From NCBI GenBank assembly GCA_016873755.1, contig VGWB01000001.1, forward strand, positions 3,387 through 67,386: a stretch of DNA of 64,000 bases, given 5' to 3'. The number at the start of each line of letters is the position of its first letter. The first letter of the stretch is position 1. The notes under the pieces were generated by a model. That model worked only from the letters and a program-made list of their open reading frames with translations. It did not search any database and was not told the origin of the DNA. Shown piece by piece: positions 13,901-61,058 of this stretch. This DNA comes from Ignavibacteria bacterium (GTDB lineage Bacteria > Bacteroidota > Ignavibacteria > UBA10030). A program made the position numbers and the translations under genes.

Positions 13901-14090
13901 AGACCGTCTTGTCGTAGCCGCCCCACGGGGCGGGAATAGTGTATTTCCACCACTTCGTATCATTCAGAGACGGTGACGCTGCATGAGGAAATTCCCCTTC
14001 TTTCAATTTCCAGTCGGACAAAGGGACAGATGCCGGATAGATGTGGCTCTTGATGAAGGGGAGAGTCTGGGTGAGGAGATCGATTGCCAT
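10977..14090 (-). CDS. Glycoside hydrolase family 38 alpha-mannosidase; cytoplasmic (no signal peptide), with a ~230-aa N-terminal extension
   Basis: 1037 aa. The GH38 catalytic-region motif 'HIDVVWLWRL' (HxDxxWLW) and the aromatic-rich central and C-terminal domains are present. No N-terminal hydrophobic segment. Confidence 0.85.
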   Translation of the reverse strand: MAIDLLTQTLPFIKSHIYPASVPLSDWKLKEGEFPHAASPSLNDTKWWKYTIPAPWGGYDKTVWFRRRVRVPREFSGKPVALLLDLPESLLYLNGKPYHGVDSHHQEVLLTTRARTNQSFLVAIEAYSGRRSELSTFNSAELVTLNPTARLLYHGLLALHELERTAGQSTPESKEVREIIRQTLVFLKYFKPEGEEYPNAIVRAYNFLSRTLETEYKTDIQGLIHLIAQSHIDVVWLWRLQETKRKCARTFSTVLRLMEEFPELSYTQSQALLYELVKEKYPDLYKEIKQKVSEGRWHPIGSTWVEPDCNIPNGESLVRQILHGKRFFRREFGLDSDVLWLPDSFGYSWALPQILKKTGIKYFFTTKLTWNDTTKFRHNTFWWQGIDGSKVLSHAPAVGLEGSIAPKDLKKSWEGFVEKEESPETLQTFGFGDGGGGPTKEQIESWRILRTIVGLPPSTFSSVTGFFKVVEEHAGELETWDDELYLEKHRGTYTTLGWVKRENRQAESQLYATELLSVLGWIFGATAASRRYEQDQIEKAWKKLLLNQFHDIVTGTSIAEVLDDVRKDFAEIRRTCEQLQHRALSGLVKNVKRRTREYDFAIFNPLAWKRNEYVLLEVKSKGKNFLVLDDHGRAVDHQILGRKKGIVHLLCYLENVPPFSFANLVVSPSTTQPAAAAPWKISHRLVDTPLYRLRLDSKGHFTSLYDKTLRRELIAKGARANVFQSFKDTPKQWDAWEIDPEYPSKQFELLKFNRIRILEMGPLRAAIRIEHKSDSGSSVSQDIRFYHKSRRIDFLTSVRWKEKQTLLKVSFPLNVKTSNATYEIQFGALQRTTKPTELRHRAMYEVPAQQWADLSEQKAGVSLINDCKYGYDASENRLRLTLLRSPHYPHPLDPLRLTDNRVTDQGDHQLSYALYPHAGDWRTGETLQRAREFNQVPLVIRGSADRISPLISYASSSIIVDCIKKAEDSDDVIVRIHEAHGQPAKVTFEFGARLEAVAECDMLENDLAPLKPVKSKLTLKFSPFEIKTLKLAFKPKR

Positions 14091-14222
14091 CGGTGTGATG
14101 TCAGTCAGAATGGGCCAGTCGCGATCAACATTCGGTAAAACCGGCTAGAAAATAGGCATTGTTAGGTGATATGTCAAGTGAGTTCACGGCAAGGGATTGC
14201 GTGAGCTGGGATGATGCATTTC

Positions 14223-14251
14223 TTGACATTTTCGGGGGTTTGGAGTAATTT
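14223..14251 (+). promoter_or_regulatory. Sigma70-like promoter (TTGACA-N17-TAATTT), about 200 nt upstream of the giant T9SS cargo gene
   Basis: TTGACA at 14223-14228, a 17-nt spacer, then TAATTT at 14246-14251. It lies in the 330-bp divergent intergenic region, which would give a long 5' leader. Confidence 0.4.
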
Positions 14252-14465
14252 GGCAGGGGGAGAAACCAGCCTTACCGTTTGAAGTCGAACGATCTCGCTT
14301 GTTCGAAATCACAGCCAGTCACGCCGTCAGACTGTATTTCATGGAGAAAGGGATCTTAAGCTGTGCACCGATGGACTTCACTGATTTTCTCATCACCAGC
14401 TTCAGGAATCCGCGTACTCTTTGTCTTCTGTCAAGAACGTCCAGCATCCAATGCGTGAGGTTCCA

Positions 14466-20580: not shown

Positions 20581-20675
20581 GCATCTGACCGAAAGCTAGG
20601 ACTTCGCGTTCTAGCGGTGGGTGTATGAATGTTCTCTTCAGATCGCTTCTGCATTCTAGAGGGAGGAAATTCCCG

Positions 20676-47424: not shown

Positions 47425-48957
47425 ATGGCTGAAACCATAACAACAACGGAAACCACCGTTCTTCAGGTTCCTACCACGCTGAGAAGCCTGATCGAAGCAT
47501 TGTTCTTCGCTGCGCGCGAGCCGCTTTCGGTCAAGCAGATCCAGACGATCTATGAGTACCAGGGTCTGAACGGAGAGTCGCGTCAACTTGAACCGACTGA
47601 TGTGATCCGAGTCGTCGACGAGCTCAATGCCGAATACGACGCGGCAGATAAGCCGTATCGCATTATCCAGATCGCCGGCGGATATCAGTTTGCGACGCTC
47701 CCCGTTTACGCGGAATGGCTCGCCAAGCTCTACAAGGAGCAGACCCGCAGGAAGCTCTCGCAATCATCAATCGAAACGCTCGCGATTGTCGCCTACAAGC
47801 AACCGATCACCAAACCCGAGATCGAATCCATACGCGGCGTCAACTGCGACTATGTCCTGAAGACTCTTCTCGAGAAGGAACTCGTGACGATCGTCGGCCG
47901 CGCCACGACAGTCGGACGTCCGTTGCTCTATGGAACCACCAAGGAGTTTCTCAAGCACTTCGGTCTCAACGATCTGACAGACCTGCCACGTCCGCGTGAG
48001 ATTCAGGAGATCCTTGGCGAGAGCCAGTTTGAGACCGAGCGCCGGATGCTTGAGGCTCAGCAGGGAGTGCTGGAGAAAAAGGAGGAGGACTTCAGATCAA
48101 GACTGCCGCACATTCCCAAAAGAAAGCCAGGTCTCGATGAGGAAGTGAAAATCATACCGAGGAAGAGAATTCGCGAGATCAAGGTGCGGGAGGGTGATGG
48201 CGAATCGGCTGGCTCACGGGCAAAAGAGGAGTTGCACCATGTTGAACCGGACGTGACGACAGAGCCGGTGTCGACAGAGGGTGCGGCGACGGCTGATTCC
48301 GTCTCGCTCGAGCCTGTTCCGCCTTCCGACGCTCTCCCGACCACCGATGGCATCGTCGTCTTCGGACAAGAAGAGCAAATCCCCGAGCAGACGCTGCCCC
48401 CACAGGAAGAGGTCGGATTTGATACGATGAATCTTTTGGGCACCCGACCGGAGAGGCTGGCAGAACCCGAAGAGGACGCGGCGCAACAGGAGGTGGCTCC
48501 GGCACCCGATGTCGGCTCCTCATTCGAGGCCGCACAACTTGAGGATTCCGAGCTGCCGGCAGAAGAGCCGGGAGTGTTTACCCCGCCCGAGGTTGAACTG
48601 ACCGAAACGGAAACCACAGAAAGCCACCTTGAGGTAGAGGGGGGAGTGGAATCGGCACCAGCCCCGTCCGATGAGATGGAACAGCCCTCGATTGACGAAC
48701 CTCAAGAGCTTGGGTCGCGGGAAGGAGCGAGCATTCCAGACACGCAGGTGGGGATTGCCGAATTTGAGAAAACGCAGCCTGACGTATCTTCAGGCGCTGT
48801 CCCTCAAACCTCCACTGGAAGTTCGATCCAGAAAGAGGAACCGCAAATCCCCGTGCCGGACGCAACCACGGTCCGGCCTACCATTCCCCAGCCAAAGTCC
48901 CGATGGCACACGTGGAAAGAGAAGATCCAAGGGTTCATCAGGAAGCTCTTCGGCTGA
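47425..48957 (+). CDS. scpB: Segregation and condensation protein B with a ~300-aa acidic, Pro/Glu-rich, low-complexity C-terminal extension
   Basis: The first ~200 aa are ScpB-like winged helices, 'LIEALFFAAREPLSVKQIQTI'. The remainder is low-complexity, 'EEPGVFTPPEVELTETETTESHLEVEGGVESAPAP...'. Confidence 0.8.
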   Translation: MAETITTTETTVLQVPTTLRSLIEALFFAAREPLSVKQIQTIYEYQGLNGESRQLEPTDVIRVVDELNAEYDAADKPYRIIQIAGGYQFATLPVYAEWLAKLYKEQTRRKLSQSSIETLAIVAYKQPITKPEIESIRGVNCDYVLKTLLEKELVTIVGRATTVGRPLLYGTTKEFLKHFGLNDLTDLPRPREIQEILGESQFETERRMLEAQQGVLEKKEEDFRSRLPHIPKRKPGLDEEVKIIPRKRIREIKVREGDGESAGSRAKEELHHVEPDVTTEPVSTEGAATADSVSLEPVPPSDALPTTDGIVVFGQEEQIPEQTLPPQEEVGFDTMNLLGTRPERLAEPEEDAAQQEVAPAPDVGSSFEAAQLEDSELPAEEPGVFTPPEVELTETETTESHLEVEGGVESAPAPSDEMEQPSIDEPQELGSREGASIPDTQVGIAEFEKTQPDVSSGAVPQTSTGSSIQKEEPQIPVPDATTVRPTIPQPKSRWHTWKEKIQGFIRKLFG

Positions 48958-49664
48958 ACAAATTTCTTGCCTTAGCTGGAGTTGGATCGCGGCGCAAGAA
49001 CGATGAACTCATTCTTTCCGGCGTCGTCAAGGTGAACGGCAAGATCGTTCAGGAACTCGGGACAAAGATCCATCCGCTCAGAGACCGCGTGACCGTCAAC
49101 GGCCAACCGGTCCAAGTACGACACAAGCTGTACTACATCCTGTTCAACAAGCCGAAGGACTGCATAACGACGCTGAGTGACGAGCGGGGAAGGGCGACGG
49201 TGTTGGAGTACGTTCGAGTGCGCGAACGGGTCTATCCGATCGGAAGACTGGACCGAAACACGACGGGCTTACTGCTTCTCACCAACGATGGTGAGCTTGC
49301 TAACGGGCTGATGCATCCTCGTCGGGAGATTGAGCGTGTCTACCGGGTTCGGCTTGAACGTGGCATCCTCGAAGATCACTTCAGCAAACTGAGGCGCGGT
49401 ATCCGACTTGAGGAGGGGTTTGCAAAGCCACGCCAGGTTGAGCTTTTTCCCGGCTCTCGTCGGAAGGAGCTCATTGTGTCAATCGCTGAAGGCCGTAACC
49501 GGGAGGTGCGCAGGTTGTTCGAAGCGTTGGGGTATACGGTGAAGGGACTCGAGCGAGTGGCGTTTGGTGGACTGACAACGGAGGGTGTCGCGCGCGGTAG
49601 ATGGAGATATCTCACCCAGTCGGAAGTTCACTACCTCAGGCAACAAGCCGGATTGGAAACATAG
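48903..49664 (+). CDS. RsuA/RluB-family pseudouridine synthase with an N-terminal S4 domain
   Basis: S4 domain 'RLNKFLALAGVGSRRKNDELILSGVVKVNG'. Catalytic region 'YPIGRLDRNTTGLLLLTNDG' with the conserved Asp. The annotated ATG overlaps the scpB 3' end; the true start may be non-ATG near 48958. Confidence 0.8.
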   Translation: MAHVEREDPRVHQEALRLNKFLALAGVGSRRKNDELILSGVVKVNGKIVQELGTKIHPLRDRVTVNGQPVQVRHKLYYILFNKPKDCITTLSDERGRATVLEYVRVRERVYPIGRLDRNTTGLLLLTNDGELANGLMHPRREIERVYRVRLERGILEDHFSKLRRGIRLEEGFAKPRQVELFPGSRRKELIVSIAEGRNREVRRLFEALGYTVKGLERVAFGGLTTEGVARGRWRYLTQSEVHYLRQQAGLET

Positions 49665-49669
49665 AGCAT

Positions 49670-51211
49670 ATGCGAATTCCTCGCAGCAGTGGCATCTTGT
49701 TGCACCCCACCTCCTTACCGGGGCTCTACGGAACCGGTGATATCGGTGATGTCTCGCTGCATCTCATTGATTGGATGGTCGTGGCGGGTCAGAAGTTCTG
49801 GCAGGTGCTCCCGCTGACGCCGACGGGATATGGCAATTCCCCGTACATGGGACTCTCTGCTTTTGCCGGAAATCCTATGCTTGTCGGCTTCGAGCCGTTG
49901 GTGGCGAAGGGATGGCTCTCCGAGTCGGATTTTGTTCCGGCACCGAATTTTCCCCGCGGTCGCGTTGACTACCCTGTCGTGATTCCATATCGGCTTGAGA
50001 GACTCCGCCGCGCGGCCAATCGCTTCTTTGCCCGCCCGGATGGGACCGAGCTATCGGACTTTGAGGCTTTTTGCAGGGAACAGCGATCGTGGCTCGACGA
50101 TTTCTGTCTTTTCCAAGCATTGAACGAGCATTTCAAAGGCGTTGAGTGGACCCGATGGGAAGAAGATTGCGCGCAGAGGAAGCCGAAGGCACTCGCGCGC
50201 GTCCGGCGAGAACTTGCCGCTGAAGTCCGCATCTGGAAATTCGTGCAATGGCAGTTCTACCGTCAGTGGGCTCGAGTGAAGAACTACGCTCATGAGCGTG
50301 GGATCAAAATCGTAGGAGACATCCCGATTTTCGTCGCTCACCACAGCGCCGATGTCTGGTCACACCCGGAGCTCTTCTATCTCGACAAGAACGGAAGTCC
50401 AAAGGTGGTTGCAGGTGTGCCACCGGACTACTTTAGCGAGACAGGGCAGCGGTGGGGAAATCCGATCTACCGCTGGTCGCGGATAGAGGAGGATGGATTC
50501 CGCTGGTGGATTGATCGTTTCCGCAGTGCTTTCACGCTTTTCGACGTCGCTCGCATCGATCATTTTCGGGGCTTCGCAGGTTACTGGGAGATTCCTGCAG
50601 CAGAAAAGACAGCCGTCCGGGGACGGTGGGTGAAGGGCCCGTACGACAAATTCTTCAAGGAGGTTCAAAAGAAACTGGGCAAACTCCCGATCATCGCCGA
50701 AGACCTCGGAGTCATCACCCCCGATGTTGTCCGCCTACGCGATCAGTTCGAGTTCCCCGGAATGAAGGTTCTGCAGTTTGCGTTCGCTGAAGGTCCTGCC
50801 AACCCTTTTCTTCCGCACCGTTATGAGCACCATTGTGTTGTCTACACAGGAACGCATGACAACAACACAACGCGCGGGTGGTTTGCGACAGCCACGGAAC
50901 GGGAGAAGGCCTTCATCCGGAAGTATTGCCATACAGACGGCAAAGAGATACATCTGGATCTGATGCGCGTGGCCTCGAGGTCTGTCGCCGATCTTTCGGT
51001 CTTTCCGTTCCAGGATGTGCTTGGCCTCGGCACCGAGGGGCGTATGAACCTTCCGGGGACCGTTTTCGGCAACTGGGAATGGCGATTTTCGTGGGACCAG
51101 GTGGGGCCGGAGCACGCTCTGATGATGTACGAAATTGCGGCGCTGAACGGGAGGACTGATCCCGATCGCCTCGACTTACCGCCCTACCCGACCGAAAAGC
51201 AAACGCCGTAG
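49670..51211 (+). CDS. malQ: 4-alpha-glucanotransferase (GH77 amylomaltase)
   Basis: 'RSSGILLHPTSLPG..GIGD' is the typical MalQ N-terminus. 'GDIPIFVAHHSADVW' and 'YTGTHDNNTTRGW' are GH77 conserved regions. Confidence 0.85.
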   Translation: MRIPRSSGILLHPTSLPGLYGTGDIGDVSLHLIDWMVVAGQKFWQVLPLTPTGYGNSPYMGLSAFAGNPMLVGFEPLVAKGWLSESDFVPAPNFPRGRVDYPVVIPYRLERLRRAANRFFARPDGTELSDFEAFCREQRSWLDDFCLFQALNEHFKGVEWTRWEEDCAQRKPKALARVRRELAAEVRIWKFVQWQFYRQWARVKNYAHERGIKIVGDIPIFVAHHSADVWSHPELFYLDKNGSPKVVAGVPPDYFSETGQRWGNPIYRWSRIEEDGFRWWIDRFRSAFTLFDVARIDHFRGFAGYWEIPAAEKTAVRGRWVKGPYDKFFKEVQKKLGKLPIIAEDLGVITPDVVRLRDQFEFPGMKVLQFAFAEGPANPFLPHRYEHHCVVYTGTHDNNTTRGWFATATEREKAFIRKYCHTDGKEIHLDLMRVASRSVADLSVFPFQDVLGLGTEGRMNLPGTVFGNWEWRFSWDQVGPEHALMMYEIAALNGRTDPDRLDLPPYPTEKQTP

Positions 51212-51292
51212 CAGTTCGTCACCTGAGGGTTGTCCGTCGAGCAAAAATCAACTAGATTCACCTGCATATACGCCCTCTTCCCATTTGGCTCT

Positions 51293-52837
51293 ATGACTGA
51301 TCCTGAAAGCTCAAATCATCAGCCACCGTCGGCGTCCTCCGAGCAGGAAGAGCTCAATGTTCTCATGCTGCGTCGTCGTGAGGAACTGGAGCAGCTCAAG
51401 AAGCTCGGCGTCAATCCGTACCCGTATGAATTTGACCGCACCGATTTCTCAAGTGACATCCTCGCGAGCTTCAAAGACAATGCACCCCCGTGCAATGTCT
51501 CGGCCGCCGGCCGGATCATGTCACTGCGCCGGATGGGGAAAGCATCGTTCTGCCACATTCAGGACTCTCGCGGCAAGATCCAGGTCTACTTGAAGAGAGA
51601 CGACTTGGGTCCCATCTACGATGCCTTCAAGCTGATGGACATCGGTGATATCATCGGCGTGAAGGGATTTGTCTTCAGAACAAAAATGGGGGAAATCTCA
51701 ATTCACGCCCAGGAATTGGTGCTCCTATCGAAGTCGCTAAGACCCCTGCCCGTTGTCAAGGAGAAGGTGGATGAACAGGGGAACAAGACGATCTACGACC
51801 CATTCTCGGATAAGGAGCTCCGCTTCCGTCAGCGCTACGTCGACCTCGTCGTCAATCCGGGCGTGCGGGAGGTATTTGTCAAACGCGCAAAGATGATTGC
51901 GGCCATGCGCAAATTCCTGGATGAGCGAGGATACCTGGAGGTGGAGACTCCGATCCTTCAGCCGATGTACGGCGGTGCTTCAGCGCGCCCCTTTGTTTCG
52001 CACCACAATGCACTCGATGTCGATCTGTATCTCCGCATCGCCGACGAGCTTTATCTGAAACGGCTGATCGTTGGCGGATACGACGGTGTCTATGAGATCT
52101 CCAAGGATTTCCGGAACGAGGGCATGGATCGTACCCACAATCCCGAGTTCACGATGCTCGAGGTGTACGTGGCCTACAAAGACTACCGATGGATGATGGA
52201 GTTGACCGAGCAGATGATCCACGCCGCTGCAGTGGCTGTGAACGGGACGCCGAAGGCGATGCTCGGCGGGAATGAAGTTGACTTCACGCCGCCGTGGAGA
52301 CGGATCGCCTTGTTTGATGCGATCAAGGAATACACGGGCAAGGAACTTCGCGGCAAATCCGAGAAGGAATTGAGGACCATTGCACAGGAGCTCCACGTCG
52401 AGCTCGAGCCAGCGATGGGGGCAGGTGCGATCATCGATGAGATCCTTCGCGCCAAAGTGGAGCCGCATCTGGTGCAGCCGGCCTTCGTGACGGACTACCC
52501 CGTGGAGCTGTCCCCCCTGGCTAAACGGCATCGCTCCGAGCCCGGACTTGTGGAACGCTTTGAGGGGTTGGTCAACGGCCAGGAGATCTGCAACGCGTTT
52601 TCTGAGCTGAATGATCCGCTCGATCAGCGGGCACGATTCGAGGAACAAATGAAACTGCGTGCACGAGGTTACGAGGAGGCACAGGTGATGGACGATGATT
52701 TCCTCCGTGCACTGGAATACGGCATGCCGCCGACGGCCGGACTCGGCGTCGGGATCGACCGCCTCACGATGCTCTTGACGAACAAAGACTCGATCCGCGA
52801 TGTGCTCTTCTTCCCGCAAATGAAGCCGGAGAAGTGA
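51293..52837 (+). CDS. lysS: Lysine--tRNA ligase (class II)
   Basis: An N-terminal OB-fold anticodon-binding region, class II motifs including 'FRNEG', and '[14 protein letters not shown]' (motif 3). An in-frame ATG at 51230 would add a 21-aa leader of non-conserved sequence. Confidence 0.85.
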
Positions 52838-52878
52838 GTCTGCTGAGGCCTGGCCCCTGAATTCGAGGTGATGATGTT

Positions 52879-53622
52879 ATGGGGTTGCGCGGTTTCCGAT
52901 TGAACCTGACCCGTTCCGAGAAAGTCCTTGGCACCGGAGGCCTGCCCCATCCCCTGCGGCTTGTTCTCTATCCCCCGCTGGTTCTCTTCCTCGCCTTAAT
53001 GCCCGGGCCATGCGATGAACCTCTGCCGGCATACAAAGAGCCTGACAGACTCTTCGACGTCAGGCTTCGAGGTGAATACTTCCTTGGCATGTACGAGCAC
53101 TCGCTGCGCGTCTATGTTGAGATCACCAATATCTTCGACGAGACGCTTGTGGGACCGGCATCGCTCACCGGCACAGTCCAGGTCACGGCGGCTGATGATC
53201 CCAACGTTCGCAAAACGTTGACATTCACCAGCCAGAATATTCTCACGGCCCGGGGCTACAATGCGGGGTCGGGCATCCTCAAGATCGACCCGCAGGAGAA
53301 GATCGTTCTCCGTGCGACGTGGTACTTCGCCGAAAACAAAGTCGTTGATGACAGCGGCCGGGACCTTGCCCACGGTAACGAAGGGAGGGACCCATTCTTC
53401 TCATACGTTGTCGACAAGACATGCGAGTTCAGGAAACTCGCCCGGCCTGAGGACTTCATCCTTCAAGGTCAGATCAAGGTGTTTCAACGGACGGGTCCGG
53501 CAGTTGCAGATCCGAGCGTTTTTCCGTTCTGTTTCATAACGAATTTTGTCGATAGCAAGACCTGCCCGACGATCATGACGGATCCTCCATGCAACTATTG
53601 GCCCGAGCCTGACGGCCAATAG
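52879..53622 (+). CDS. Secreted protein or lipoprotein of unknown function, tandem paralog A, Cys-rich
   Basis: Hydrophobic leader '...LVLYPPLVLFLALMPGPC', then a Cys. It is ~55% identical to the downstream ORF, with conserved motifs 'VTNIFDETLEGPASL', 'SYVxDKTCxxRKLARPED', 'FPxCFxTNFVD' and 'PPCxNYWP'. Confidence 0.55.
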   Translation: MGLRGFRLNLTRSEKVLGTGGLPHPLRLVLYPPLVLFLALMPGPCDEPLPAYKEPDRLFDVRLRGEYFLGMYEHSLRVYVEITNIFDETLVGPASLTGTVQVTAADDPNVRKTLTFTSQNILTARGYNAGSGILKIDPQEKIVLRATWYFAENKVVDDSGRDLAHGNEGRDPFFSYVVDKTCEFRKLARPEDFILQGQIKVFQRTGPAVADPSVFPFCFITNFVDSKTCPTIMTDPPCNYWPEPDGQ

Positions 53623-53653
53623 CAGCGCAGGGCCGAAACCGAAGGAAGGTTCC

Positions 53654-54397
53654 ATGCAGATGGTGGATTGCGATAGCCGAACCGAGAATCGGAGCACCGG
53701 GCGTGCGTACCGCACCATTAAGCGCAGGCAATGTCTTCTCCTCCTGTCCGTTTTCGCACTCGGCCTGTCTGTTTCATTGGATTCCTGCAAAGAGCCGCTG
53801 CCATCGTACCGGGAACCGGAACAATTGTTCAGCGGTAGGATTGAGGGAGAATACTGGCTGAGCGACACAGAGCATTCATTCCGGATCTACATTTACGTCA
53901 CCAATATATTTGATGAAACGCTGGAGGGCCCTGCTTCGCTGAAAGGATCGATCGAGCTGTTCTTCGGCAGAGATCCGAGGATCCGGAAGACGTTTACACT
54001 CAACAGTCAGAATCTGATCTCGCCAAGAAGCTACTACCCGGCGACGGGCTCGCTCAGGATCGACCCCAAACAAACGCTGGTTTTCCAGGCGATCTGGTAC
54101 TTCCCTGCGAACCAGGTGATTGATGACAGCGGCAGGAACCTCACAGGAGATACGACTACCGCGAGCTTCTTCTCTTACGTGGACGACAAGACGTGCAAGT
54201 GGAGGAAACTCGCGAGACCTGAGGATCTGGTGCTAGAAGGAAACGTAAACCTGTTCGAGAAGTCGGCGCCAGTCTTGGTCGGGCCCAAGGTCTTCCCTCT
54301 TTGTTTCGTGACCAACTTCGTCGATGTTCGAATTTGTCCGCGGATTATTACGATACCACCGTGTGAAAACTACTGGCCCGGTAACGCGGACCTCTAG
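53654..54397 (+). CDS. Secreted protein or lipoprotein of unknown function, tandem paralog B, Cys-rich
   Basis: Signal peptide 'LLLLSVFALGLSVSLDSC'. It is paralogous to 52879-53622 and has the same four conserved Cys positions after the leader. Confidence 0.55.
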   Translation: MQMVDCDSRTENRSTGRAYRTIKRRQCLLLLSVFALGLSVSLDSCKEPLPSYREPEQLFSGRIEGEYWLSDTEHSFRIYIYVTNIFDETLEGPASLKGSIELFFGRDPRIRKTFTLNSQNLISPRSYYPATGSLRIDPKQTLVFQAIWYFPANQVIDDSGRNLTGDTTTASFFSYVDDKTCKWRKLARPEDLVLEGNVNLFEKSAPVLVGPKVFPLCFVTNFVDVRICPRIITIPPCENYWPGNADL

Positions 54398-54447
54398 CCG
54401 CGTTGAGCGAAACGAAGGTAGGGCAGGAACTTTCAAGGTGCATGACT

Positions 54448-57021
54448 ATGAAGACCGAATTCAGTAGGTCCTTTCCGAGGCTGGATGCATTCCTCCGGCT
54501 CGCGGCGGTGCTCTTCCTCTTTGCCCAGAATACCTATGCCCTGCCTGGGGCCGGAACAACAGGAATCCTCGAAGGCATTGTTCTTGACGAGCAGACGCGC
54601 GAGCCCCTCATTGGTGTCAATGTCGTTATCGTCGGAACCCTCCACGGTGCCGCCAGTGATGTTGAAGGCCGCTACCGTATCAACAATATCCGTGCAGGTG
54701 TGTACGAGGTTCGCTATAGCATCCTCGGATACACCTCAGTCGTGGTGAAGAATGTGACGATCCTGCCGGATCTGCGTACGAGGATCAATGTCGACATGGA
54801 AGAGACAACGTTGGAAATGAGCGTCGTCGAGGTGCGTGCAGAGCGACCGCTCATCCAGAAGGACCTTGCAGCAACTGCGTTCACACTGGGCGAGGTCAAA
54901 CTGGAGAAGCTGCCCATTTCGTCCTTCCGGGACGTGTTGCTGCTGCAGCCGGGCACCACGCTCGAAGGAAACGTGCGGGGTGGCAAGACCACGGAGGTCC
55001 TCTTTCTGGTCGACGGACTCCCGGTTCAGGATGTGATCGGGGGAGGCTTGGCCACGACGCTTCCGAGAAGCTCGATTACCAGCATGACTATCCATACCGG
55101 CGGATTTGACGCCGAATACGGCAATGCGCTCTCCGGTGTCGTCAACGTCATCACGAAGAGCGGCGGGGATCAGCACGATTTTGCCGTCCGCATTGATCGG
55201 GACAGCTGGATGCCGAGCAGCATCAACCAGCAGCAGGACCGCCTGAGTGAGTTCGAGCTCACTGCCGGCGGACCCATTGTGCGGGATCGGATGTACTACT
55301 TTGCTGCCAACTCGGTCATCTTGAGTGACACTCGGTGGTGGCAGGATCTTGACCGCTTCTTCCCATCGCCGATTTCAAAGGAATTTATCGGTTTCGGGAA
55401 GCTCGACTATCTCTTTTCCCCTCGCCTGAAGTTGAGTCTCCAGGGCATCTATTCGGTCAAAGACTGGAAGGACTACGAGTTCAGCTGGCGTTTCAACCTC
55501 TCCGGCTTGCCGACCAGAGCCCGCAACTCATACCGGGCTGTCCTTCTCCTGTCCCATACGGTATCCGATTGGAGCTTCTACACGGCAAGCCTGGACGTGT
55601 TCCATCTTCAATCAACCATCGGTGAGGGCTCAAAAGCATCCCTGTCCCTCCAACCGTACGATTATGACTTCTATCTGCAATACATTGTTGGAGGAAGACG
55701 GAACTGGTGGGCTGACGCGCGGCAAACGATCTACACCCTCAAGGGGGACTTCACCACGCAGATCGAAGAGAAGCATCTGCTTCGACTGGGAGTTGAGTTC
55801 AATCAGTATGATATTGTCTCGGACCTCGTAAAATATGAGCCCCAGACGACCTACTTTGGGAAACCCATCGTCGACGCACCGCTCCTCAACTATAGTAATT
55901 CCTATGACTACGCTCCGAGGTCGGGGAGCGTGTACGTCCAGGATAGGATCGAGCTCGTGCACGACGGGTCGAATCTTACCTTCGGGATGCGTTGGGATTT
56001 CCTGGACCCGACTGCGGAGCGTCCGATCGTAGAATTCATACCGCTCACCGGCAACGAATTCCGTCAGAACGTTACGGGCGCGACCAGGGCGAGATTCAAG
56101 CACCAGTTCAGCCCGCGGATGAGCGTCGCGGCTCCAGTCGGTCCATCGAGTTTCTTCTTCGTCAATTTCGGTCACTATTTCCAATTCCCCCTTTTCGAAT
56201 ACCTCTACTCCGGCATCAGCCCGGCCCAATTGCGACAGGGTGCGCGCAATGTGCTCACCGGCAACCCGGATCTCGAGCCGGAAAGAACGATCGCCTGGGA
56301 AATCGGCTTCAAATACGGACTCTCTGAGAACACGCTGGCGTCGTTGACGTACTTCCGCAAGGCCTTCAAGAACCAGATCGATTCGAAGACCCTTATTCCG
56401 TTCGACAGCAAATCGGCGGGCGACTACGGATACGCTTCGTACGTGAACAACGCGGAGGCGACGGCGACGGGCCTTGAGTTTGTCCTGAGCAGGGAACACG
56501 ATGAGCGGCTGTCGGGCAGCATTTCATATTCGTATATGGTGACCGACGGAATCAGCGAGTATGTTGATCAGACGATCAACTATGTCCAATGGGGATTTCC
56601 TCTCCCGGCGATACCCTTTCCCCTGAGCTGGGATCAACGACACACTATCAAAGCAGACGTCGACTTTCTGCTGCCCCTCGATATCACGTCTAATGTGGTT
56701 CTGTTGTACAACTCTCCTCGTCCATATACCTACTTTCCAACCCGTGACGGTTTCACTCCGCTCGTTCCCACCAAGACGCTGGTCCCGAACAACGCTCGTA
56801 TGTTCGATGTGGCGTTCGTCAACGCGAAGCTCTCACGTGACTTCGTGCTCGATGATGCGATGCGATACGTGCTTTCGATCTATGTCGATGTGCGAAATCT
56901 GTTCAACCGAAAGAATGTTCGCTGGATGGATTCAAGCGGAAGGATCGGAGGGGAACTCGGGGACCCGGGCGCATACTACGATTATCGCCGAATCCGAGTC
57001 GGAGCACGACTTCAGTTTTGA
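54448..57021 (+). CDS. TonB-dependent outer-membrane receptor with an N-terminal carboxypeptidase-regulatory-like (CarbopepD_reg) domain and a plug domain
   Basis: Signal peptide; 'GIVLDEQTREPLIGVNVVIVGTLHGAASDVEGRYRINNIRAGVYEVRYSILGY' (CarbopepD_reg); the plug region 'ISSFRDVLLLQPGTTLEGN'; a long beta-barrel; and a C-terminal aromatic residue, '...RIRVGARLQF'. Alternative starts lie at 54403 and 54442. Confidence 0.8.
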   Translation: MKTEFSRSFPRLDAFLRLAAVLFLFAQNTYALPGAGTTGILEGIVLDEQTREPLIGVNVVIVGTLHGAASDVEGRYRINNIRAGVYEVRYSILGYTSVVVKNVTILPDLRTRINVDMEETTLEMSVVEVRAERPLIQKDLAATAFTLGEVKLEKLPISSFRDVLLLQPGTTLEGNVRGGKTTEVLFLVDGLPVQDVIGGGLATTLPRSSITSMTIHTGGFDAEYGNALSGVVNVITKSGGDQHDFAVRIDRDSWMPSSINQQQDRLSEFELTAGGPIVRDRMYYFAANSVILSDTRWWQDLDRFFPSPISKEFIGFGKLDYLFSPRLKLSLQGIYSVKDWKDYEFSWRFNLSGLPTRARNSYRAVLLLSHTVSDWSFYTASLDVFHLQSTIGEGSKASLSLQPYDYDFYLQYIVGGRRNWWADARQTIYTLKGDFTTQIEEKHLLRLGVEFNQYDIVSDLVKYEPQTTYFGKPIVDAPLLNYSNSYDYAPRSGSVYVQDRIELVHDGSNLTFGMRWDFLDPTAERPIVEFIPLTGNEFRQNVTGATRARFKHQFSPRMSVAAPVGPSSFFFVNFGHYFQFPLFEYLYSGISPAQLRQGARNVLTGNPDLEPERTIAWEIGFKYGLSENTLASLTYFRKAFKNQIDSKTLIPFDSKSAGDYGYASYVNNAEATATGLEFVLSREHDERLSGSISYSYMVTDGISEYVDQTINYVQWGFPLPAIPFPLSWDQRHTIKADVDFLLPLDITSNVVLLYNSPRPYTYFPTRDGFTPLVPTKTLVPNNARMFDVAFVNAKLSRDFVLDDAMRYVLSIYVDVRNLFNRKNVRWMDSSGRIGGELGDPGAYYDYRRIRVGARLQF

Positions 57022-57198
57022 CGCGTGACCCTTTCCAGGGCTCATTCGCTGCTGCCGCGTTGTGCCGTATAGCGTCTGTTGATACGATCGTCAAGACGTG
57101 CATTTTACCTTGATTTTCAGGCATTTTCCGCTAATTTAAAGAATCACGTGCTGCAATTCGAAACTGTTTCAGACGATGCAGGAAAGAGGAGTCGAACG

Positions 57199-58821
57199 AT
57201 GAAGAAGAAGTTCTCAGGATGGGCTGTTTTGGCCCTGGTTATTGTAGGCCTGTTCGCAGGAATGGAGATCAACCAGCTTATCTCCGGAGACACGCCGTAC
57301 GAGCAGGCGAACAAGTTCAGGGAAATCCTCCAGCTAACCGAAAAGTACTATGTAGAGGAAGTCGACGCGAAAATGCTGACCGAGGCGGCTGTCGAGGGAC
57401 TGCTGGGCAAGCTTGATCCACATTCGGTGTACATACCCCAGCGGGCATATGACTTGGTGCGGGAAGAGTTCCGAGGTAAGTTCGAAGGGATCGGTATCCG
57501 TTTCACCATTCGCAATGATTCCATCTTTGTTGCGGAGACCATAGGCGGTGGCCCGTCGGCTCGTCTGGGAATTCAGACGAACGACCGTATTGTTCGCATT
57601 AACGACTCCTCTTCAGTCGGCTTCACCAACGATCAGGTCATCCAACGGCTGAGGGGGCCCAAAGGGTCCAAGGTCAAGGTTTCGATTGCACGCCCCGGCG
57701 TCAGAGAGTTACTCGACTTTGAGATCATCCGGGACGAGATCGCGCTCACGAGCGTGGATATCTCGATGATGGTGGACGACGAGGTTGGATACGTGAGCGT
57801 CAACCGCTTCAGTGAGCGCACGGATGCCGAACTTGTGGAGGCCCTCCGGAGCTTGCGGACAAAAGGTATGAAGCGACTGATTCTTGACCTTCGCGACAAC
57901 CCGGGCGGACTTCTGGAGCAGGCGTTCAAGATTGCTGACCTTTTTCTTGACGAAGGCACAAAAGAGAAGCCGCACAAGATTGTCTATACGACAGCCCGCC
58001 GCTCGGAGTTTGACGAAGCCTATTTTGCCAGGACGGGCCACGCTTATGAGAACCTTCCTTTGATCGTCTTGCTGAACAACACGTCGGCCAGTGCGAGCGA
58101 AATTGTCGCCGGGGCCATCCAGGACTGGGACCGGGGATTGGTCGTTGGCGAGACGAGCTTTGGCAAGGGGCTCGTGCAGCGGCAGTTCCCGCTGTCCGAT
58201 GGATCGGGGCTGCGGCTGACGATTGCCCGCTACTACACCCCGAGCGGACGCTCGATTCAGCGCGAATACGAAGGCAAAGAACGGCAGGCATATCAGCGTG
58301 AGGCGTTCCAACGTCAGGAGCGGGAAGGCGAAAATATTGAACATAGGTCGGAGGGCGATTCGTCGCGGCCGGTTTTCCGCACGAATGCCGGCCGGATGGT
58401 CTACGGCGGGGGAGGGATAACGCCGGATTATGTGGTAAAGAACCAGCCGCTGAGCTCGTTGACACAGAGCATGCTGCGGCGCGGACTCTTTGAGCAGTTT
58501 GTGACCGCGTATTTGGACGGAAAAGGACTGAAAATCCGCTCCGCATTTGGCAACGACCCAACCCGGTTCAGGCAATCGTTCACCGCTTCGGACGAAATCC
58601 TCAAAGACTTCCGATCGTTTGTTGATCAACAGAACATCAAGATTATCGAGAAAGAGTATGAGCAGGACCTCGCCTTCATCAAGACGAGGCTCAAGGCGAC
58701 ATTCGCCAGAAACTTCTGGGGGAATGATGGGTGGTATCGCATCATGCTACAGATCGATGCCCCCTTCCACAAAGCGCTCAGCCTCTTCCCAGAGGCGGAA
58801 AAGATCGCCAGGTTAAACTAG
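57199..58821 (+). CDS. Carboxyl-terminal processing peptidase (S41, tail-specific protease family)
   Basis: RBS AAAGAGGAG, then a signal/anchor 'MKKKFSGWAVLALVIVGLFAG'. A PDZ region 'GIGIRFTIRNDSIFVAETIGGGPSARLGIQTNDRIVRIND' follows. S41 catalytic motifs are 'LILDLRDNPGGLLEQA' and 'TSFGKGLVQ'. Confidence 0.8.
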   Translation: MKKKFSGWAVLALVIVGLFAGMEINQLISGDTPYEQANKFREILQLTEKYYVEEVDAKMLTEAAVEGLLGKLDPHSVYIPQRAYDLVREEFRGKFEGIGIRFTIRNDSIFVAETIGGGPSARLGIQTNDRIVRINDSSSVGFTNDQVIQRLRGPKGSKVKVSIARPGVRELLDFEIIRDEIALTSVDISMMVDDEVGYVSVNRFSERTDAELVEALRSLRTKGMKRLILDLRDNPGGLLEQAFKIADLFLDEGTKEKPHKIVYTTARRSEFDEAYFARTGHAYENLPLIVLLNNTSASASEIVAGAIQDWDRGLVVGETSFGKGLVQRQFPLSDGSGLRLTIARYYTPSGRSIQREYEGKERQAYQREAFQRQEREGENIEHRSEGDSSRPVFRTNAGRMVYGGGGITPDYVVKNQPLSSLTQSMLRRGLFEQFVTAYLDGKGLKIRSAFGNDPTRFRQSFTASDEILKDFRSFVDQQNIKIIEKEYEQDLAFIKTRLKATFARNFWGNDGWYRIMLQIDAPFHKALSLFPEAEKIARLN

Positions 58822-58826
58822 GGGGG

Positions 58827-59714
58827 ATGATGAAGAGGCGACGCGGCTGGTGGTTAGCGGTATTGCCGGTGTTCATTGGTCTGCTCTTCCTGGGCCTTGG
58901 GGTCGGAAGTTCGCAACCTGTGGCAGAGGCACAAGCGGAACATCCGTCGGAGTTGCTCGCTGTAACAACCGGCGGGATGTTGCAGGTGGGCGAAGAGCTT
59001 GAGTATGACGTCAGCTACTCGTTTTTCCACATTGGGACGATCCGGACATGCGTGGTCGATAGAGAGTTCCGAAACGGCAAAATGGTCTACAAGAGCGTGG
59101 CGTACATCGATTCCAATCCGAGCCTCAGCTGGCTCGTTGACCTGCATATTCGCTTCTATAGCGAGATTGATGACAGCGTCTTTTCGTATGCCTGGATCAG
59201 CGACGACAGCACGGAAAAAGAGATCTACTTTCGCCGGTTCAAGTTCGACTACTCGAACAACCGAGCGCTGCTGGAAAAAGGCAAGATAGTTCCTGGGGGT
59301 GCCCGAGCGGTCGAGGGCATAGATACGGTGTCGATCACAGAACGATGCCAGGACGGTCTCTCATTGTATTACTATGCGCGTGAAAATGTGCGCCAGAAGA
59401 AGCAGGTCCGTGTGGCAACGCTGATCGAAAGGAAGCAGGAGTACACTTTCATCAATTTCACGAACAAGAAATCCGGAGTCGAGATTGATGCAGTTAACCA
59501 TCTCGTCGAAGTCGTCGAATTCGATGGCAAGGCGGAGTACGTTGGTGTTTTTGGCCTCACCGGGGGGTTCCGGGGCTGGTTCAGCAATGATGACGCACGG
59601 ATTCCCGTTCTGGCGAGAATGAACGTGATTCTCGGGAGCATTAAGATAGAACTTGTCAGATGGACTCGAACCGGCTGGCAACCTCCTCTGTACGTTGAGG
59701 AGGCAGAGAGGTGA
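58827..59714 (+). CDS. Hypothetical secreted protein (possibly DUF3108-like)
   Basis: Signal peptide 'MMKRRRGWWLAVLPVFIGLLFLGLGVGS'. No catalytic motif recognised. Its stop overlaps the next gene (ATGA). Confidence 0.5.
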   Translation: MMKRRRGWWLAVLPVFIGLLFLGLGVGSSQPVAEAQAEHPSELLAVTTGGMLQVGEELEYDVSYSFFHIGTIRTCVVDREFRNGKMVYKSVAYIDSNPSLSWLVDLHIRFYSEIDDSVFSYAWISDDSTEKEIYFRRFKFDYSNNRALLEKGKIVPGGARAVEGIDTVSITERCQDGLSLYYYARENVRQKKQVRVATLIERKQEYTFINFTNKKSGVEIDAVNHLVEVVEFDGKAEYVGVFGLTGGFRGWFSNDDARIPVLARMNVILGSIKIELVRWTRTGWQPPLYVEEAER

Positions 59715-60140
59715 TCATTTCCTATCCGGGCATCTCGCCAAAAATGCACGCATCGGTGTTTGTTGCCGAGGATGCCCACATCGTTGGCGATGTCAAGATC
59801 GGCGAGGACGGCAGTGTATGGTTCAACTCAGTTGTCCGTGGGGATGTGAACTTTGTTCGCATCGGGAAAGGCACAAATGCTCAGGATAATTGCGTCCTGC
59901 ATGTGACCCACCAGAAACATCCCCTTCAATTGCCTGATCGGCATTGGGGCAGAAGTACTCGACGATGCGAAGGTCGGGCCCTGCGCCTTGGTGGCGGCAG
60001 GTTCGGCGGTCACGGTGGGCTTTGAGGTGCCAGAAGGTGTGCCTGCGCGTATCAAGCGGATGCTGACAGCCGAAGAGCGCCGGCACATCGAACAATCTGC
60101 ACGGAGCTACGTAGAGCATGTCAAGATCTATCGTTCCTGA
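59711..60140 (+). pseudogene. Gamma-class carbonic anhydrase / hexapeptide-repeat (YrdA/PaaY-like) gene disrupted by a ~60-bp internal deletion and frameshift
   Basis: The N-terminal 93 aa are canonical, '...IGKGTNAQDNCVLHVTHQKHPL'. The frame then breaks. The +1 frame continues as the canonical C-terminus, 'NCLIGIGAEVLDDAKVGPCALVAAGSAVTVGFEVPEGVPARIKRMLTAEERRHIEQSARSYVEHV'. The missing segment corresponds to 'IGDxVTVGHxAxLHGCTIGD', which contains two Zn-ligand His. Confidence 0.5.
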
Positions 60141-60158
60141 ATCCCAGAAGAGGTCGCC

Positions 60159-61058
60159 ATGAAACTCACGGTCTGGGGAGTCCGTGGCTCCGTCCCGACT
60201 CCCGGGAAGCACACAGTTCGGTACGGCGGAAACACGCCCTGTCTCGAGCTTCGACTTGACGACGACAGCCTCATTATTCTGGATGCCGGGACGGGGATTC
60301 GCAATTTCGGAGATCATCTCATCAACAATGGGGAATCGGTGCACGCCTATCTTCTCGTTACGCATCCCCATTGGGATCACATCCAAGGATTTCCCTTTTT
60401 CAAGCCGGCATTTATCTCGGGGAACGAGCTCACCATCTTCGGGACGGAGCGTCCGGAGAAGTCTTTGAGCGAAATCATCTCCGAGCAGATGAACCGGATC
60501 TACTTTCCGGTCCAGCTTCACGAATTGAAAGCGAAGCTCAATTTCAAGCCGATCAAGGAAGAAGGGGAGATGAAGATCTATGGCTGCACGGTGAAGACTC
60601 TGTACGTCAATCATCCGGGATTCACGGTCGGCTATCGGATCGAGTACAACGGAAAGACGCTTGTGTACATTAGCGACAACGAGCCGTATGACCGCGAGGC
60701 TGCTGCTTCTCTGTCGAACTTTGAAGCAGCGGTGAAGGCGAAGTTTGATTCGAAGAAAGGCGATCCGAACCAGCGAGTGTTCGACTTTTGCACGGGAGCT
60801 GATGTGTTACTCCACGATGCAACCTACACGCCGGAGGAGTACATCGACCGCGTCGGCTGGGGTCATTCCCATTACCTCTTTACACTACGTGTCGCTGCGC
60901 AGGCGGATGTGAAGCGGCTCTACTTGTTCCATCACGACCCGAACCACAGCGACGACAAAGTTGACGAAATCCTCAAGAAATGCAAAAAGGAGGTCAAGAC
61001 GCGTGGGTACAAGTTCGATTGCGAGGCGGCAGCAGAGGGAGGGGTAGTCACGATCTAA
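60159..61058 (+). CDS. MBL-fold metallo-hydrolase (PhnP / RNase Z-like subgroup)
   Basis: 'SLIILDAGTGIRNFG' and 'YLLVTHPHWDHIQGFPFF' (HxHxDH) are present. 299 aa. Confidence 0.8.
   Translation: MKLTVWGVRGSVPTPGKHTVRYGGNTPCLELRLDDDSLIILDAGTGIRNFGDHLINNGESVHAYLLVTHPHWDHIQGFPFFKPAFISGNELTIFGTERPEKSLSEIISEQMNRIYFPVQLHELKAKLNFKPIKEEGEMKIYGCTVKTLYVNHPGFTVGYRIEYNGKTLVYISDNEPYDREAAASLSNFEAAVKAKFDSKKGDPNQRVFDFCTGADVLLHDATYTPEEYIDRVGWGHSHYLFTLRVAAQADVKRLYLFHHDPNHSDDKVDEILKKCKKEVKTRGYKFDCEAAAEGGVVTI

What the first reader, a model, noticed from the sequence alone, without database searches (positions are those of the whole stretch)
52879..57021. Two paralogous Cys-rich secreted/lipoproteins in tandem, immediately upstream of a TonB-dependent receptor
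The 247-aa ORFs are ~55% identical. They share a hydrophobic leader ending in Cys and four further strictly conserved Cys in KTC, FPxCF, CP and PPCxNYWP motifs, consistent with two disulfides. They precede by 5 nt a TonB-dependent receptor with an N-terminal CarbopepD_reg domain. In Bacteroidota, TonB-dependent transporters typically partner with SusD-like lipoproteins, and no SusD-like gene is here. These small proteins may be a novel class of receptor-associated substrate-capture proteins, duplicated for specificity.
Basis: partly seen in the sequence, partly recalled or inferred. Interest (0 to 1): 0.6.

Follow-up and report, generated by a model that had tools for sequence, protein, structure and literature searches.

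The report
Lipoprotein partners of a TonB-dependent transporter
Two tandem genes encode outer-membrane lipoproteins of an undescribed family that, in every related genome examined but one, sits next to one particular TonB-dependent outer-membrane transporter, so they are most likely its dedicated helper subunits; this kind of system is already known in Bacteroidota, but this protein family is new.

Summary
ORF A (52879-53622) and ORF B (53654-54397) are real 247-aa paralogues, 51% identical. Both are under purifying selection. They lie upstream of a TonB-dependent transporter (TBDT) with an N-terminal CarbopepD_reg domain.

Both have a signal peptide ending in a lipobox Cys, then a near-invariant C-x-E-x-L-P-P-Y/R-x-D/E-P segment. 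An FnIII/Ig-like beta-sandwich follows (AF2 pLDDT 90), then a tail with four conserved Cys.

The family has no Pfam, NCBIfam or PDB relative. It has about 200 clusters at 50% identity, all in uncultured Ignavibacteria-like Bacteroidota.

Linkage to the TBDT holds in both directions:
- Starting from the lipoprotein, an orthologous TBDT is adjacent in 32 of 35 loci. Two loci cannot be evaluated and one is an orphan.
- Starting from the TBDT, 22 of 22 fully evaluable loci carry 1-5 tandem lipoprotein genes.
- The duplications are recurrent and lineage-specific.

The TBDT is not SusC-type, so the absence of SusD is expected.

Best reading: a new family of TBDT partner lipoproteins, the "alternate lids" of Price et al. 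2023. Surface exposure, ligand capture and the substrate are all untested.

Verdict: new member of a known kind, moderate interest.

The parts
52879..53622 (+). Paralogue A, 247-aa lipoprotein precursor (mature about 203 aa from Cys45)
   Evidence: ORF. 51% identical to B. 79% identical to its orthologue in L001, dN/dS 0.15. No Pfam or NCBIfam hit.
53654..54397 (+). Paralogue B, 247-aa lipoprotein precursor. It is closer than A to the single-copy orthologues in other genomes.
   Evidence: NJ tree. dN/dS 0.15. AF2 model has pLDDT 89.7 with the 76-sequence alignment.
52879..53013 (+). A: signal peptide, with an Arg/Lys-containing N-terminal region and the hydrophobic stretch LVLYPPLVLFLALM, ending in lipobox-like MPGP|C (Cys45)
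   Evidence: The G-P-C variant also occurs in single-copy members such as P0004 and P0010.
53654..53788 (+). B: signal peptide (..IKRRQ then CLLLLSVFALGLSVSL) ending in lipobox L-D-S|C (Cys45)
   Evidence: Position -1 is S, G or A in 80% of 153 family members.
53011..53043 (+). A: conserved N-terminal segment of the mature protein, CDEPLPAYKEP. Family motif: C-x-E-x-L-P-P-Y/R-x-D/E-P.
   Evidence: E47, L49, P50 and P55 are nearly invariant in alignments that were not selected on the motif. Position-by-position counts.
53786..53818 (+). B: the same conserved N-terminal segment, CKEPLPSYREP
53903..53923 (+). B: NIFDETL, the most conserved internal motif, at the beta2-beta3 turn. The same motif in A is at 53128-53148.
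   Evidence: N84, D87, E88 and T89 are conserved in at least 89% of 151 members. This segment has the lowest entropy of all.
54185..54379 (+). B: Cys-containing C-terminal part, with C181 (54194-96), C217 (54302-04), C228 (54335-37) and C237 (54362-64). The equivalents in A are C182, C218, C229 and C238, within 53413-53604.
   Evidence: The co-loss pattern suggests disulfides C181-C228 and C217-C237. This pairing is inferred.
54448..57021 (+). TonB-dependent transporter, 857 aa from ATG 54448 (the longest ORF starts at TTG 54403). It has a signal peptide, a CarbopepD_reg N-terminal extension, a plug and a barrel.
   Evidence: Pfam. NCBIfam: SusC/RagA model 67 bits against a cut-off of 368. Start site. 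45-91% identical to the orthologues next to every family member.
54820..54840 (+). TonB-box-like segment SVVEVRA, between the N-terminal extension and the plug. The following ERPLIQKD is conserved in orthologues.
   Evidence: Alignment A3. Coordinates. Assignment rests on resemblance to the TonB-box consensus, so it is inferred.

Best explanation
A and B are outer-membrane lipoproteins of an undescribed family. Each has an FnIII/Ig-like beta-sandwich of about 200 aa and a C-terminal tail probably stapled by two disulfides. They act as dedicated partner subunits of the TonB-dependent transporter encoded immediately downstream.

Proposed mechanism:
1. Sec export, lipidation at Cys45 and cleavage by signal peptidase II.
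2. Transfer to the outer membrane and, probably, flipping to the cell surface. The acidic, Pro-rich N-terminal segment C-x-E-x-L-P-P-Y-x-D/E-P would serve as export signal and/or tether.
3. Docking on the transporter, where the sandwich helps capture or hand over the (unknown) substrate. This is how the 'alternate lid' lipoproteins of non-SusC TBDTs in Bacteroides are thought to work.
4. The three genes form one operon. The extra copy gives a second, diverged partner for the same transporter.

Shown: the gene structure, the lipoprotein-type N-terminus, the fold class, the conserved Cys, purifying selection on both copies, and near-obligate two-way genomic coupling with one TBDT orthologue group.

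Inferred: physical complex, surface orientation, ligand capture, disulfide pairing and operon transcription.
For: Coupling, starting from the lipoprotein. An orthologous TBDT (45-91% identical to the window's) is directly adjacent on the same strand in 32 of 35 loci. Two loci end before a TBDT could appear (L022, L032). One is an orphan (L031).

Coupling, starting from the TBDT N-terminus. All 22 loci with a complete orthologous TBDT and at least 700 nt on both flanks carry at least one family gene next to it. Four loci with only 26%-identical TBDTs carry none.

Adjacency survives rearrangement. The gene lies upstream of the TBDT in most lineages. In the lineages with the most diverged TBDTs (about 45-58% identical) it is more often downstream, while LysS and CtpA stay on the flanks.

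Lipoprotein features. A hydrophobic leader followed by an invariant Cys is found in essentially all members. Position -1 is S, G or A in 80%.

Extracytoplasmic features. Four conserved Cys are lost in pairs.

Acidic residues after the Cys. E or D at +3 is found in 153 of 153 members, and 84 of 153 have two or three acidic residues within +2 to +5. This partly resembles the Bacteroidota lipoprotein export signal.

Selection. dN/dS is 0.15 for A and for B, against 0.07 for the TBDT and 0.06 for LysS.

Fold. A confident model with a binding-module-type beta-sandwich.

Precedent. Six families of non-SusD lipoproteins encoded next to non-SusC TBDTs in Bacteroides have genetic and AlphaFold-Multimer support.

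Cell envelope. The organism has a type IX secretion substrate (Por_Secre_tail domain in the 14421-20021 protein), so a Bacteroidota-type envelope is likely.
Against: - There is no direct evidence of a complex or of surface exposure.
- The export-signal match is partial. B has only one acidic residue (C-K-E-P). The experimentally defined minimal signal needs two acidic residues preceded by a polar or basic residue. That signal has not been studied in Ignavibacteria-like lineages.
- Position -1 of A's lipobox is Pro, which is atypical for signal peptidase II.
- No substrate clue was found. No riboswitch appears in the window or in 12 related loci, and the neighbours are housekeeping genes.
- One family member (L031) has no adjacent TBDT.
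- Multimer prediction could not be run with these tools.
Confidence: 0.6

Rival explanations
1. Periplasm-facing outer-membrane lipoproteins. They work with the same TBDT from the inside, for example by binding its CarbopepD_reg N-terminal extension or plug, or by assisting its assembly or regulation. They would not capture substrate outside the cell.
For: The genomic coupling says nothing about which side of the membrane the protein faces. The export-signal match is only partial. The most conserved parts are the N-terminal segment next to the lipid anchor and the NxFDETL turn. That conservation would fit a fixed protein-protein interface. The TBDT carries a periplasmic N-terminal extension domain.
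Against: An invariant acidic residue close to the lipidated Cys is the hallmark of surface lipoproteins in Bacteroidota. All characterised TBDT-adjacent lipoproteins of this phylum that have been localised are surface-exposed. Recurrent duplication and faster evolution than the TBDT fit an outward-facing protein better.
Confidence: 0.2
2. Surface shields rather than substrate binders. The lipoproteins cover the exposed face of a conserved, possibly indispensable transporter against phages or bacteriocins that use it as receptor. The arrays of 2-5 diverged copies would be the product of an arms race.
For: There were at least seven independent lineage-specific tandem duplications, with up to five copies per locus. 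The lipoproteins are 25-83% identical where the TBDTs are 45-91%. The TBDT sits in a deeply conserved housekeeping neighbourhood.
Against: dN/dS of 0.15 shows overall purifying selection, not diversifying selection. The family is vertically inherited and core, with no mobile or phage context. Two thirds of loci have a single copy. No site-level test of positive selection was done.
Confidence: 0.1
3. The proteins are functionally tied to the downstream S41 C-terminal processing protease (CtpA), as an inhibitor or adaptor lipoprotein, in the way NlpI and LbcA serve Prc and CtpA. Adjacency to the TBDT would be secondary.
Against: CtpA is absent from 15 of 38 loci with enough flank, whereas the TBDT is always present. 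The TBDT, and sometimes a GH57 gene, separates the lipoprotein from CtpA. The BsuPI resemblance is at generic Ig-fold level, with 14-15% identity over 102 residues. Known S41 adaptors are TPR proteins (own knowledge).
Confidence: 0.05

Closest known systems
'Alternate lid' lipoproteins of non-SusC TonB-dependent transporters in Bacteroides: BtuG, XusB/DUF4374, DUF4249, DUF4625, DUF4876, BT4056 and HmuY (Price, Deutschbauer and Arkin 2023, bioRxiv 10.1101/2023.03.17.533168)
   Same: [quoted passage not shown] Proximity is conserved across many lineages. Acidic residues follow the lipidated Cys. The barrel is of ordinary length rather than SusC length. Distribution is restricted to Bacteroidota in the broad sense.
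   Different: No sequence relation to any of those families: no Pfam hit in 76 members, and hhalign against a DUF4249 protein gives probability 1.4%. The fold differs: a single FnIII/Ig-like sandwich with a Cys-stapled tail, against a beta-propeller in BtuG and other folds elsewhere. Tandem arrays of 2-5 paralogues per single TBDT recur. The family is found in Ignavibacteria-like lineages, not Bacteroidia. No genetic or multimer evidence exists yet.
SusD / SusC pairs of polysaccharide utilisation loci
   Same: The concept of a surface lipoprotein capping a TBDT that carries a CarbopepD_reg-like N-terminal extension.
   Different: SusD is a large alpha-helical TPR protein, whereas these are all-beta proteins of about 200 aa. 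The TBDT fails the SusC/RagA model (67 bits against a 368-bit cut-off). There are no PUL-type enzymes or regulators at this locus.
HmuY-HmuR haem uptake of Porphyromonas and Bacteroides
   Same: A small all-beta lipoprotein of about 200 aa encoded directly upstream of its TBDT.
BsuPI (PF12690; PDB 3isy), intracellular proteinase inhibitor of Bacillus subtilis
   Different: 14-15% identity. Only half of the protein is covered. 75 of 76 members have no Pfam BsuPI hit. BsuPI is cytoplasmic and has no lipid anchor or Cys tail.

Membership tests
Bacterial lipoprotein (signal peptidase II substrate) | N-terminal signal peptide with a positively charged N-terminal region and a hydrophobic core, followed by a lipobox ending in an invariant Cys | tested here: met
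   Cys45 is invariant in all alignments. It is preceded by an uncharged run with a median of 13 residues. Position -1 is S, G or A in 80% of 153 members. The test was rule-based only. SignalP and LipoP were not available. A has Pro at -1.
Bacteroidota surface lipoprotein (carrying the lipoprotein export signal) | Two or more acidic residues at about +3 to +5 after the Cys, preceded by a polar or basic residue. Examples: K-(D/E)2, SDDDD, SDDFE (Lauber 2016, PMC5080379). | tested here: inconclusive
   E or D at +3 is found in all members. 84 of 153 have two or three acidic residues in +2 to +5, and 69 of 153 have only one. A is C-D-E-P and B is C-K-E-P. The signal has not been defined for Ignavibacteria-like lineages.
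TBDT-associated 'alternate lid' lipoproteins (a functional class, Price et al. 2023) | [quoted passage not shown] | tested here: met
   32 of 35 loci starting from the lipoprotein, and 22 of 22 evaluable loci starting from the TBDT. TBDT identity ranges down to about 45%.
TBDT-associated 'alternate lid' lipoproteins (a functional class, Price et al. 2023) | [quoted passage not shown] | not testable with these tools
   Structure prediction accepts single chains only and returns no coordinates or PAE. There are no genetic data for these uncultured organisms.
Known lid families: SusD, BtuG, DUF4374/XusB, DUF4249, DUF4625, DUF4876, HmuY | A significant match to the family's Pfam or NCBIfam model | tested here: not met
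   No Pfam or NCBIfam hit for A or B at E<=0.1. None of these families was hit by any of 76 members at E<=0.01. hhalign of the family profile against the DUF4249 protein of L005 gives probability 1.4%.
BsuPI (PF12690) | A match to the Pfam model at or above its gathering score | tested here: not met
   Only 1 of 76 members hits, at E 9.4e-4. A and B do not hit. The resemblance is at fold level only.
TonB-dependent transporter (third gene) | Plug domain, 22-strand-type barrel domain and a TonB box | tested here: met
   TonB_dep_Rec_b-barrel at 5.5e-27. Plug at 25.3 bits, above the 23.9-bit cut-off. A conserved SVVEVRA-ERPLIQKD segment precedes the plug. The C-terminus ends in Phe.
SusC/RagA subfamily (TIGR04056) | A score at or above the 368.25-bit cut-off over the whole protein, plus an adjacent SusD | tested here: not met
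   67.2 bits, matching residues 57-257 only. No SusD-like neighbour: the flanking genes are LysS, CtpA and DUF3108.

The most novel reading that the evidence does not exclude
This is a 'one transporter, several caps' system. A single core-genome TonB-dependent transporter of Ignavibacteria-like bacteria would be served by an expandable array of 1-5 diverged, interchangeable or hetero-oligomeric surface lipoproteins of a new fold family. This would broaden or switch what the transporter can capture, or mask it from phages. The invariant C-x-E-x-L-P-P-Y-x-D-P segment would be a clade-specific surface-export and docking signal, distinct from the export signal defined in Bacteroidia.
Probability: 0.2. 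Interest if true: 0.65.

Novelty: new member of a known kind. Interest (0 to 1): 0.4.

Why it matters
TonB-dependent transporters with surface-lipoprotein partners are the main nutrient-capture devices of Bacteroidota. The known partner families come almost entirely from gut Bacteroidia.

This adds an uncatalogued family of about 200 clusters with no Pfam, NCBIfam or PDB entry. It comes from environmental Ignavibacteria-like lineages and has unusually clean two-way gene linkage to one transporter orthologue group. That makes it a good candidate for a Pfam entry and for multimer modelling.

The conserved N-terminal segment could help define how lipoproteins reach the surface outside the Bacteroidia. 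The recurrent arrays of 2-5 copies beside one transporter pose a concrete question about stoichiometry and specificity.

It does not overturn any concept, and the substrate remains unknown.

Tried and rejected
- **Word-indexed protein search**. It gave only 12 homologues and suggested a tiny family. The exhaustive representative search corrected this to 198 clusters at E<=1e-3.
- **Foldseek against AFDB50**. The library was unavailable.
- **Profile against PDB sequences**. No hit.
- **The search for related loci with the 76-sequence alignment**. It failed because no conserved stretch was available. The 13-sequence alignment worked.
- **Relation to DUF4249**, which co-occurs in L005 and L013. 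Rejected by hhalign.
- **Riboswitch or other RNA leader as a substrate clue.** None in the window or in 12 loci.
- **Sigma-70 promoter and terminator scan**. No promoter-like sites, and terminator-like sites were at chance level. This is uninformative, because Bacteroidota promoters differ from the sigma-70 consensus.
- **Glycan hints.** A MalQ gene lies two genes upstream. A GH57 gene lies downstream of the TBDT in 12 loci. BNR-repeat type IX secretion proteins follow the TBDT in 7 loci. I treated these as conserved synteny, not as evidence for a substrate.
- **Disulfide geometry and mapping of conserved residues onto the model.** Not possible, because model coordinates are not exposed.
- **Fused lipoprotein-TBDT chain as a pseudo-multimer.** Not attempted. 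The tool rejects non-window sequences and returns no interface metrics.

Full report
**Observation**

The window carries two 247-aa ORFs on the + strand, A at 52879-53622 and B at 53654-54397. They are followed by a long ORF at 54403-57021.

A and B are 51% identical and 71% similar over 216 residues, E 3e-86.

The third ORF is a TonB-dependent transporter (TBDT). It has a CarbopepD_reg N-terminal domain, a weak but above-threshold Plug, and a barrel.

Two details need correcting:
- The 5-nt gap applies only to the longest ORF, which starts at a TTG. Alignment of orthologues, and the gene calls on near-identical public contigs, put the start at ATG 54448 (857 aa). That is 50 nt after B's stop.
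- The TBDT is not SusC-type. It scores 67 bits on TIGR04056 against a cut-off of 368, and matches the N-terminal part only. The lack of a SusD gene is therefore expected and not remarkable.

**Are the genes real?**

A close relative (L001/L002) has orthologues of both paralogues. dN/dS is 0.15 for A and 0.15 for B. For comparison it is 0.07 for the TBDT and 0.06-0.12 for LysS, MalQ and RluB. Both copies are maintained by selection, and they evolve about twice as fast as the transporter.

**What the proteins look like**

Neither protein hits Pfam or NCBIfam at E<=0.1. None of 76 diverse family members hits a relevant Pfam family. A family profile finds nothing among PDB sequences.

The word-indexed search found only 12 homologues. 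The exhaustive search of 1.84 billion representatives found 198 clusters at E<=1e-3 and 118 at E<=1e-10, nearly all 190-240 aa.

Every member has the same layout:
- A hydrophobic leader ends in Cys. Position -1 is S, G or A in 80%, and P in 8%, including A.
- A strikingly conserved start of the mature protein follows: C-[DNEK]-E-[SP]-L-P-P-[YR]-x-[DE]-P. E47, L49, P50 and P55 are also near-invariant in alignments that were not selected on this motif.
- The mature part is about 185-205 aa.

AlphaFold2 gives pLDDT 80 with 13 sequences and 89.7 with 76 sequences, with identical topology. The model is a sandwich of about 10 strands, a long loop at 150-189 and a C-terminal tail.

The most conserved internal element is N-x-F-D-E-T-L at the beta2-beta3 turn. 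W148, DDxGR, D178, R184 and E190 are also conserved.

The four non-lipobox Cys are all present in 100 of 151 distinct members. Twenty members keep C181 and C228 but lack C217 and C237. Twenty lack all four. This pattern suggests disulfides C181-C228 and C217-C237. That pairing is inferred, because the model coordinates could not be read. Conserved paired Cys fit an extracytoplasmic location.

**Genomic coupling**

This is the strongest result.

Starting from the lipoprotein, I collected 35 loci by exact-protein look-ups and a scan of GTDB genomes:
- In 32, a TBDT 45-91% identical to the window's is directly adjacent on the same strand.
- Two contigs (L022, L032) end inside the lipoprotein array.
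- One distant member (L031, 24% identical to B) is an orphan. It sits between an unrelated gene and a divergent GH20 gene.

Starting from the TBDT N-terminus, a metagenome scan gave 62 loci:
- All 22 loci with a complete orthologous TBDT and at least 700 nt on both sides carry one or more family genes next to it.
- Four loci whose TBDT is only 26% identical carry none.

The lipoprotein lies upstream of the TBDT in most lineages. In the lineages with the most diverged TBDTs (about 45-58% identical) it is more often downstream, although several loci in that range still have it upstream. LysS upstream and CtpA-DUF3108 downstream often stay in place in both arrangements. So adjacency to the TBDT has survived rearrangement. 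No other gene is constant. CtpA is within 4 kb in 23 of 38 loci, LysS in 22 of 46, GH57 in 12 and a BNR-repeat type IX secretion protein in 7.

The hosts are uncultured. The MAGs are labelled Bacteroidota, Ignavibacteria(les/ota), and once each KSB1 and Chitinophagaceae. The window's own locus recurs in JGI metagenomes 3300020222 and 3300020084.

**Duplication**

About two thirds of roughly 67 distinct loci have one copy. About 16 have two, four have three, and one lineage (L033/L034/L062) has five in tandem. These counts are approximate, because some arrays are cut by contig ends.

In a neighbour-joining tree, paralogues group by lineage. This implies at least seven independent duplications. 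The A/B duplication is shared with L001/L002 but not with the single-copy genome of P0004. B is the copy closer to single-copy orthologues: P0004 is 65% identical to B and 58% to A.

**Interpretation**

Non-SusC TBDTs of Bacteroides are often encoded next to unrelated lipoproteins: BtuG, XusB/DUF4374, DUF4249, DUF4625, DUF4876, BT4056 and HmuY. These are predicted to bind the transporter's outer face, and in several cases they are genetically required (Price et al. 2023).

The present family meets the genomic criteria of that class and belongs to none of its known families. I therefore read A and B as dedicated partner lipoproteins of the adjacent TBDT. They are probably surface-exposed and help capture or deliver the substrate.

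Surface exposure is uncertain. The invariant acidic residue at +3, and a second one in about half the members, resembles the Bacteroidota lipoprotein export signal. That signal has been defined experimentally as two acidic residues preceded by a polar or basic one (PMC5080379). B, with C-K-E-P, does not strictly meet it.

The substrate is unknown. The TBDT's best family matches are sub-threshold haem and siderophore receptor models, and PfeA and CirA among solved structures. No riboswitch was found.

Rivals:
- A periplasm-facing partner, which the genomic coupling cannot exclude.
- A protective cap shaped by phage or bacteriocin pressure. This fits the recurrent duplication but not the overall purifying selection.
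- A link to the CtpA protease suggested by the BsuPI-like fold. This is weak, because CtpA is often absent while the TBDT never is.

**Novelty and score**

The family is new to the databases I could query. The kind of system, a TBDT plus a non-SusD partner lipoprotein in Bacteroidota, is established. I rate it a new member of a known kind, interest 0.4.

The most novel reading still open is an expandable 'one transporter, several caps' system with a clade-specific export and docking signal. I give it probability about 0.2.

Noticed in passing
window 54362-54364 (codon 237 of B); L098, L099 and L100 position 1710: The window has TGT (Cys237, one of the conserved Cys). Three public contigs are otherwise identical over 2744 nt: JGI 3300020222, JGI 3300020084 and Logan SRR7008010. 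They have TAT (Tyr) at this codon, and it is the only mismatch. So a C237Y variant of paralogue B exists in the natural population. It would leave its inferred disulfide partner C217 unpaired.
   Followed up: partly
window 14421-20021 (+); L005 9794-13795; L009 5207-9316; L011 6798-end; L013 about 11264-15347; L054: The window encodes an 1866-aa BNR/Asp-box repeat protein (PSII_BNR, Sortilin-Vps10-like) with a type IX secretion C-terminal sorting domain. Homologous proteins of 1330-1370 aa lie directly after the orthologous TBDT in several other lineages. In L005 and L013 a DUF4249 lipoprotein follows them. This may hint at a larger surface module in those lineages.
   Followed up: partly
window 59711-60340 (+): The hexapeptide-repeat (gamma-carbonic-anhydrase-like) gene is 168-170 aa in relatives. 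In the window it is broken. Residues 1-74 are in one frame and residues 94-168 in another, with about 19 residues missing. This is a probable pseudogene or assembly error.
   Followed up: partly
window 47425-61058 and loci L002, L004, L014-L019, L023, L025, L029, L041, L043, L046, L050, L051, L056, L057, L059, L062, L067, L071, L073, L087: There is deeply conserved synteny: ScpB-RluB-MalQ-LysS-[lipoprotein(s)]-TBDT-(GH57)-CtpA(S41)-DUF3108-hexapeptide-MBL. It persists down to about 47% TBDT identity. The transporter module is therefore part of a core, vertically inherited neighbourhood, not an accessory island.
   Followed up: partly
L033/L034 2929-6412; L062 2413-5794: Five tandem family paralogues (33-47% identical to one another) precede the TBDT. 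Upstream of them lie a Big_1/invasin-like protein and a CHRD-domain protein.
   Followed up: partly
L031 357-1019: This is the only family member found without an adjacent TBDT (P0150, 24% identical to B). It keeps the CDETLPPRQDP start and the NTYDET motif. It sits next to a divergently oriented GH20 hexosaminidase.
   Followed up: partly
window 10977-14090 (-) and 20625-23003 (+): A GH38 alpha-mannosidase, and a 792-aa protein with CARDB plus a caspase (Peptidase_C14)/CHAT domain. Neither is related to the finding.
   Followed up: no
L013 8001-8599 and 8670-11211: In this MAG both the lipoprotein and the TBDT are split across reading frames. This looks like assembly frameshifts rather than pseudogenes.
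   Followed up: no
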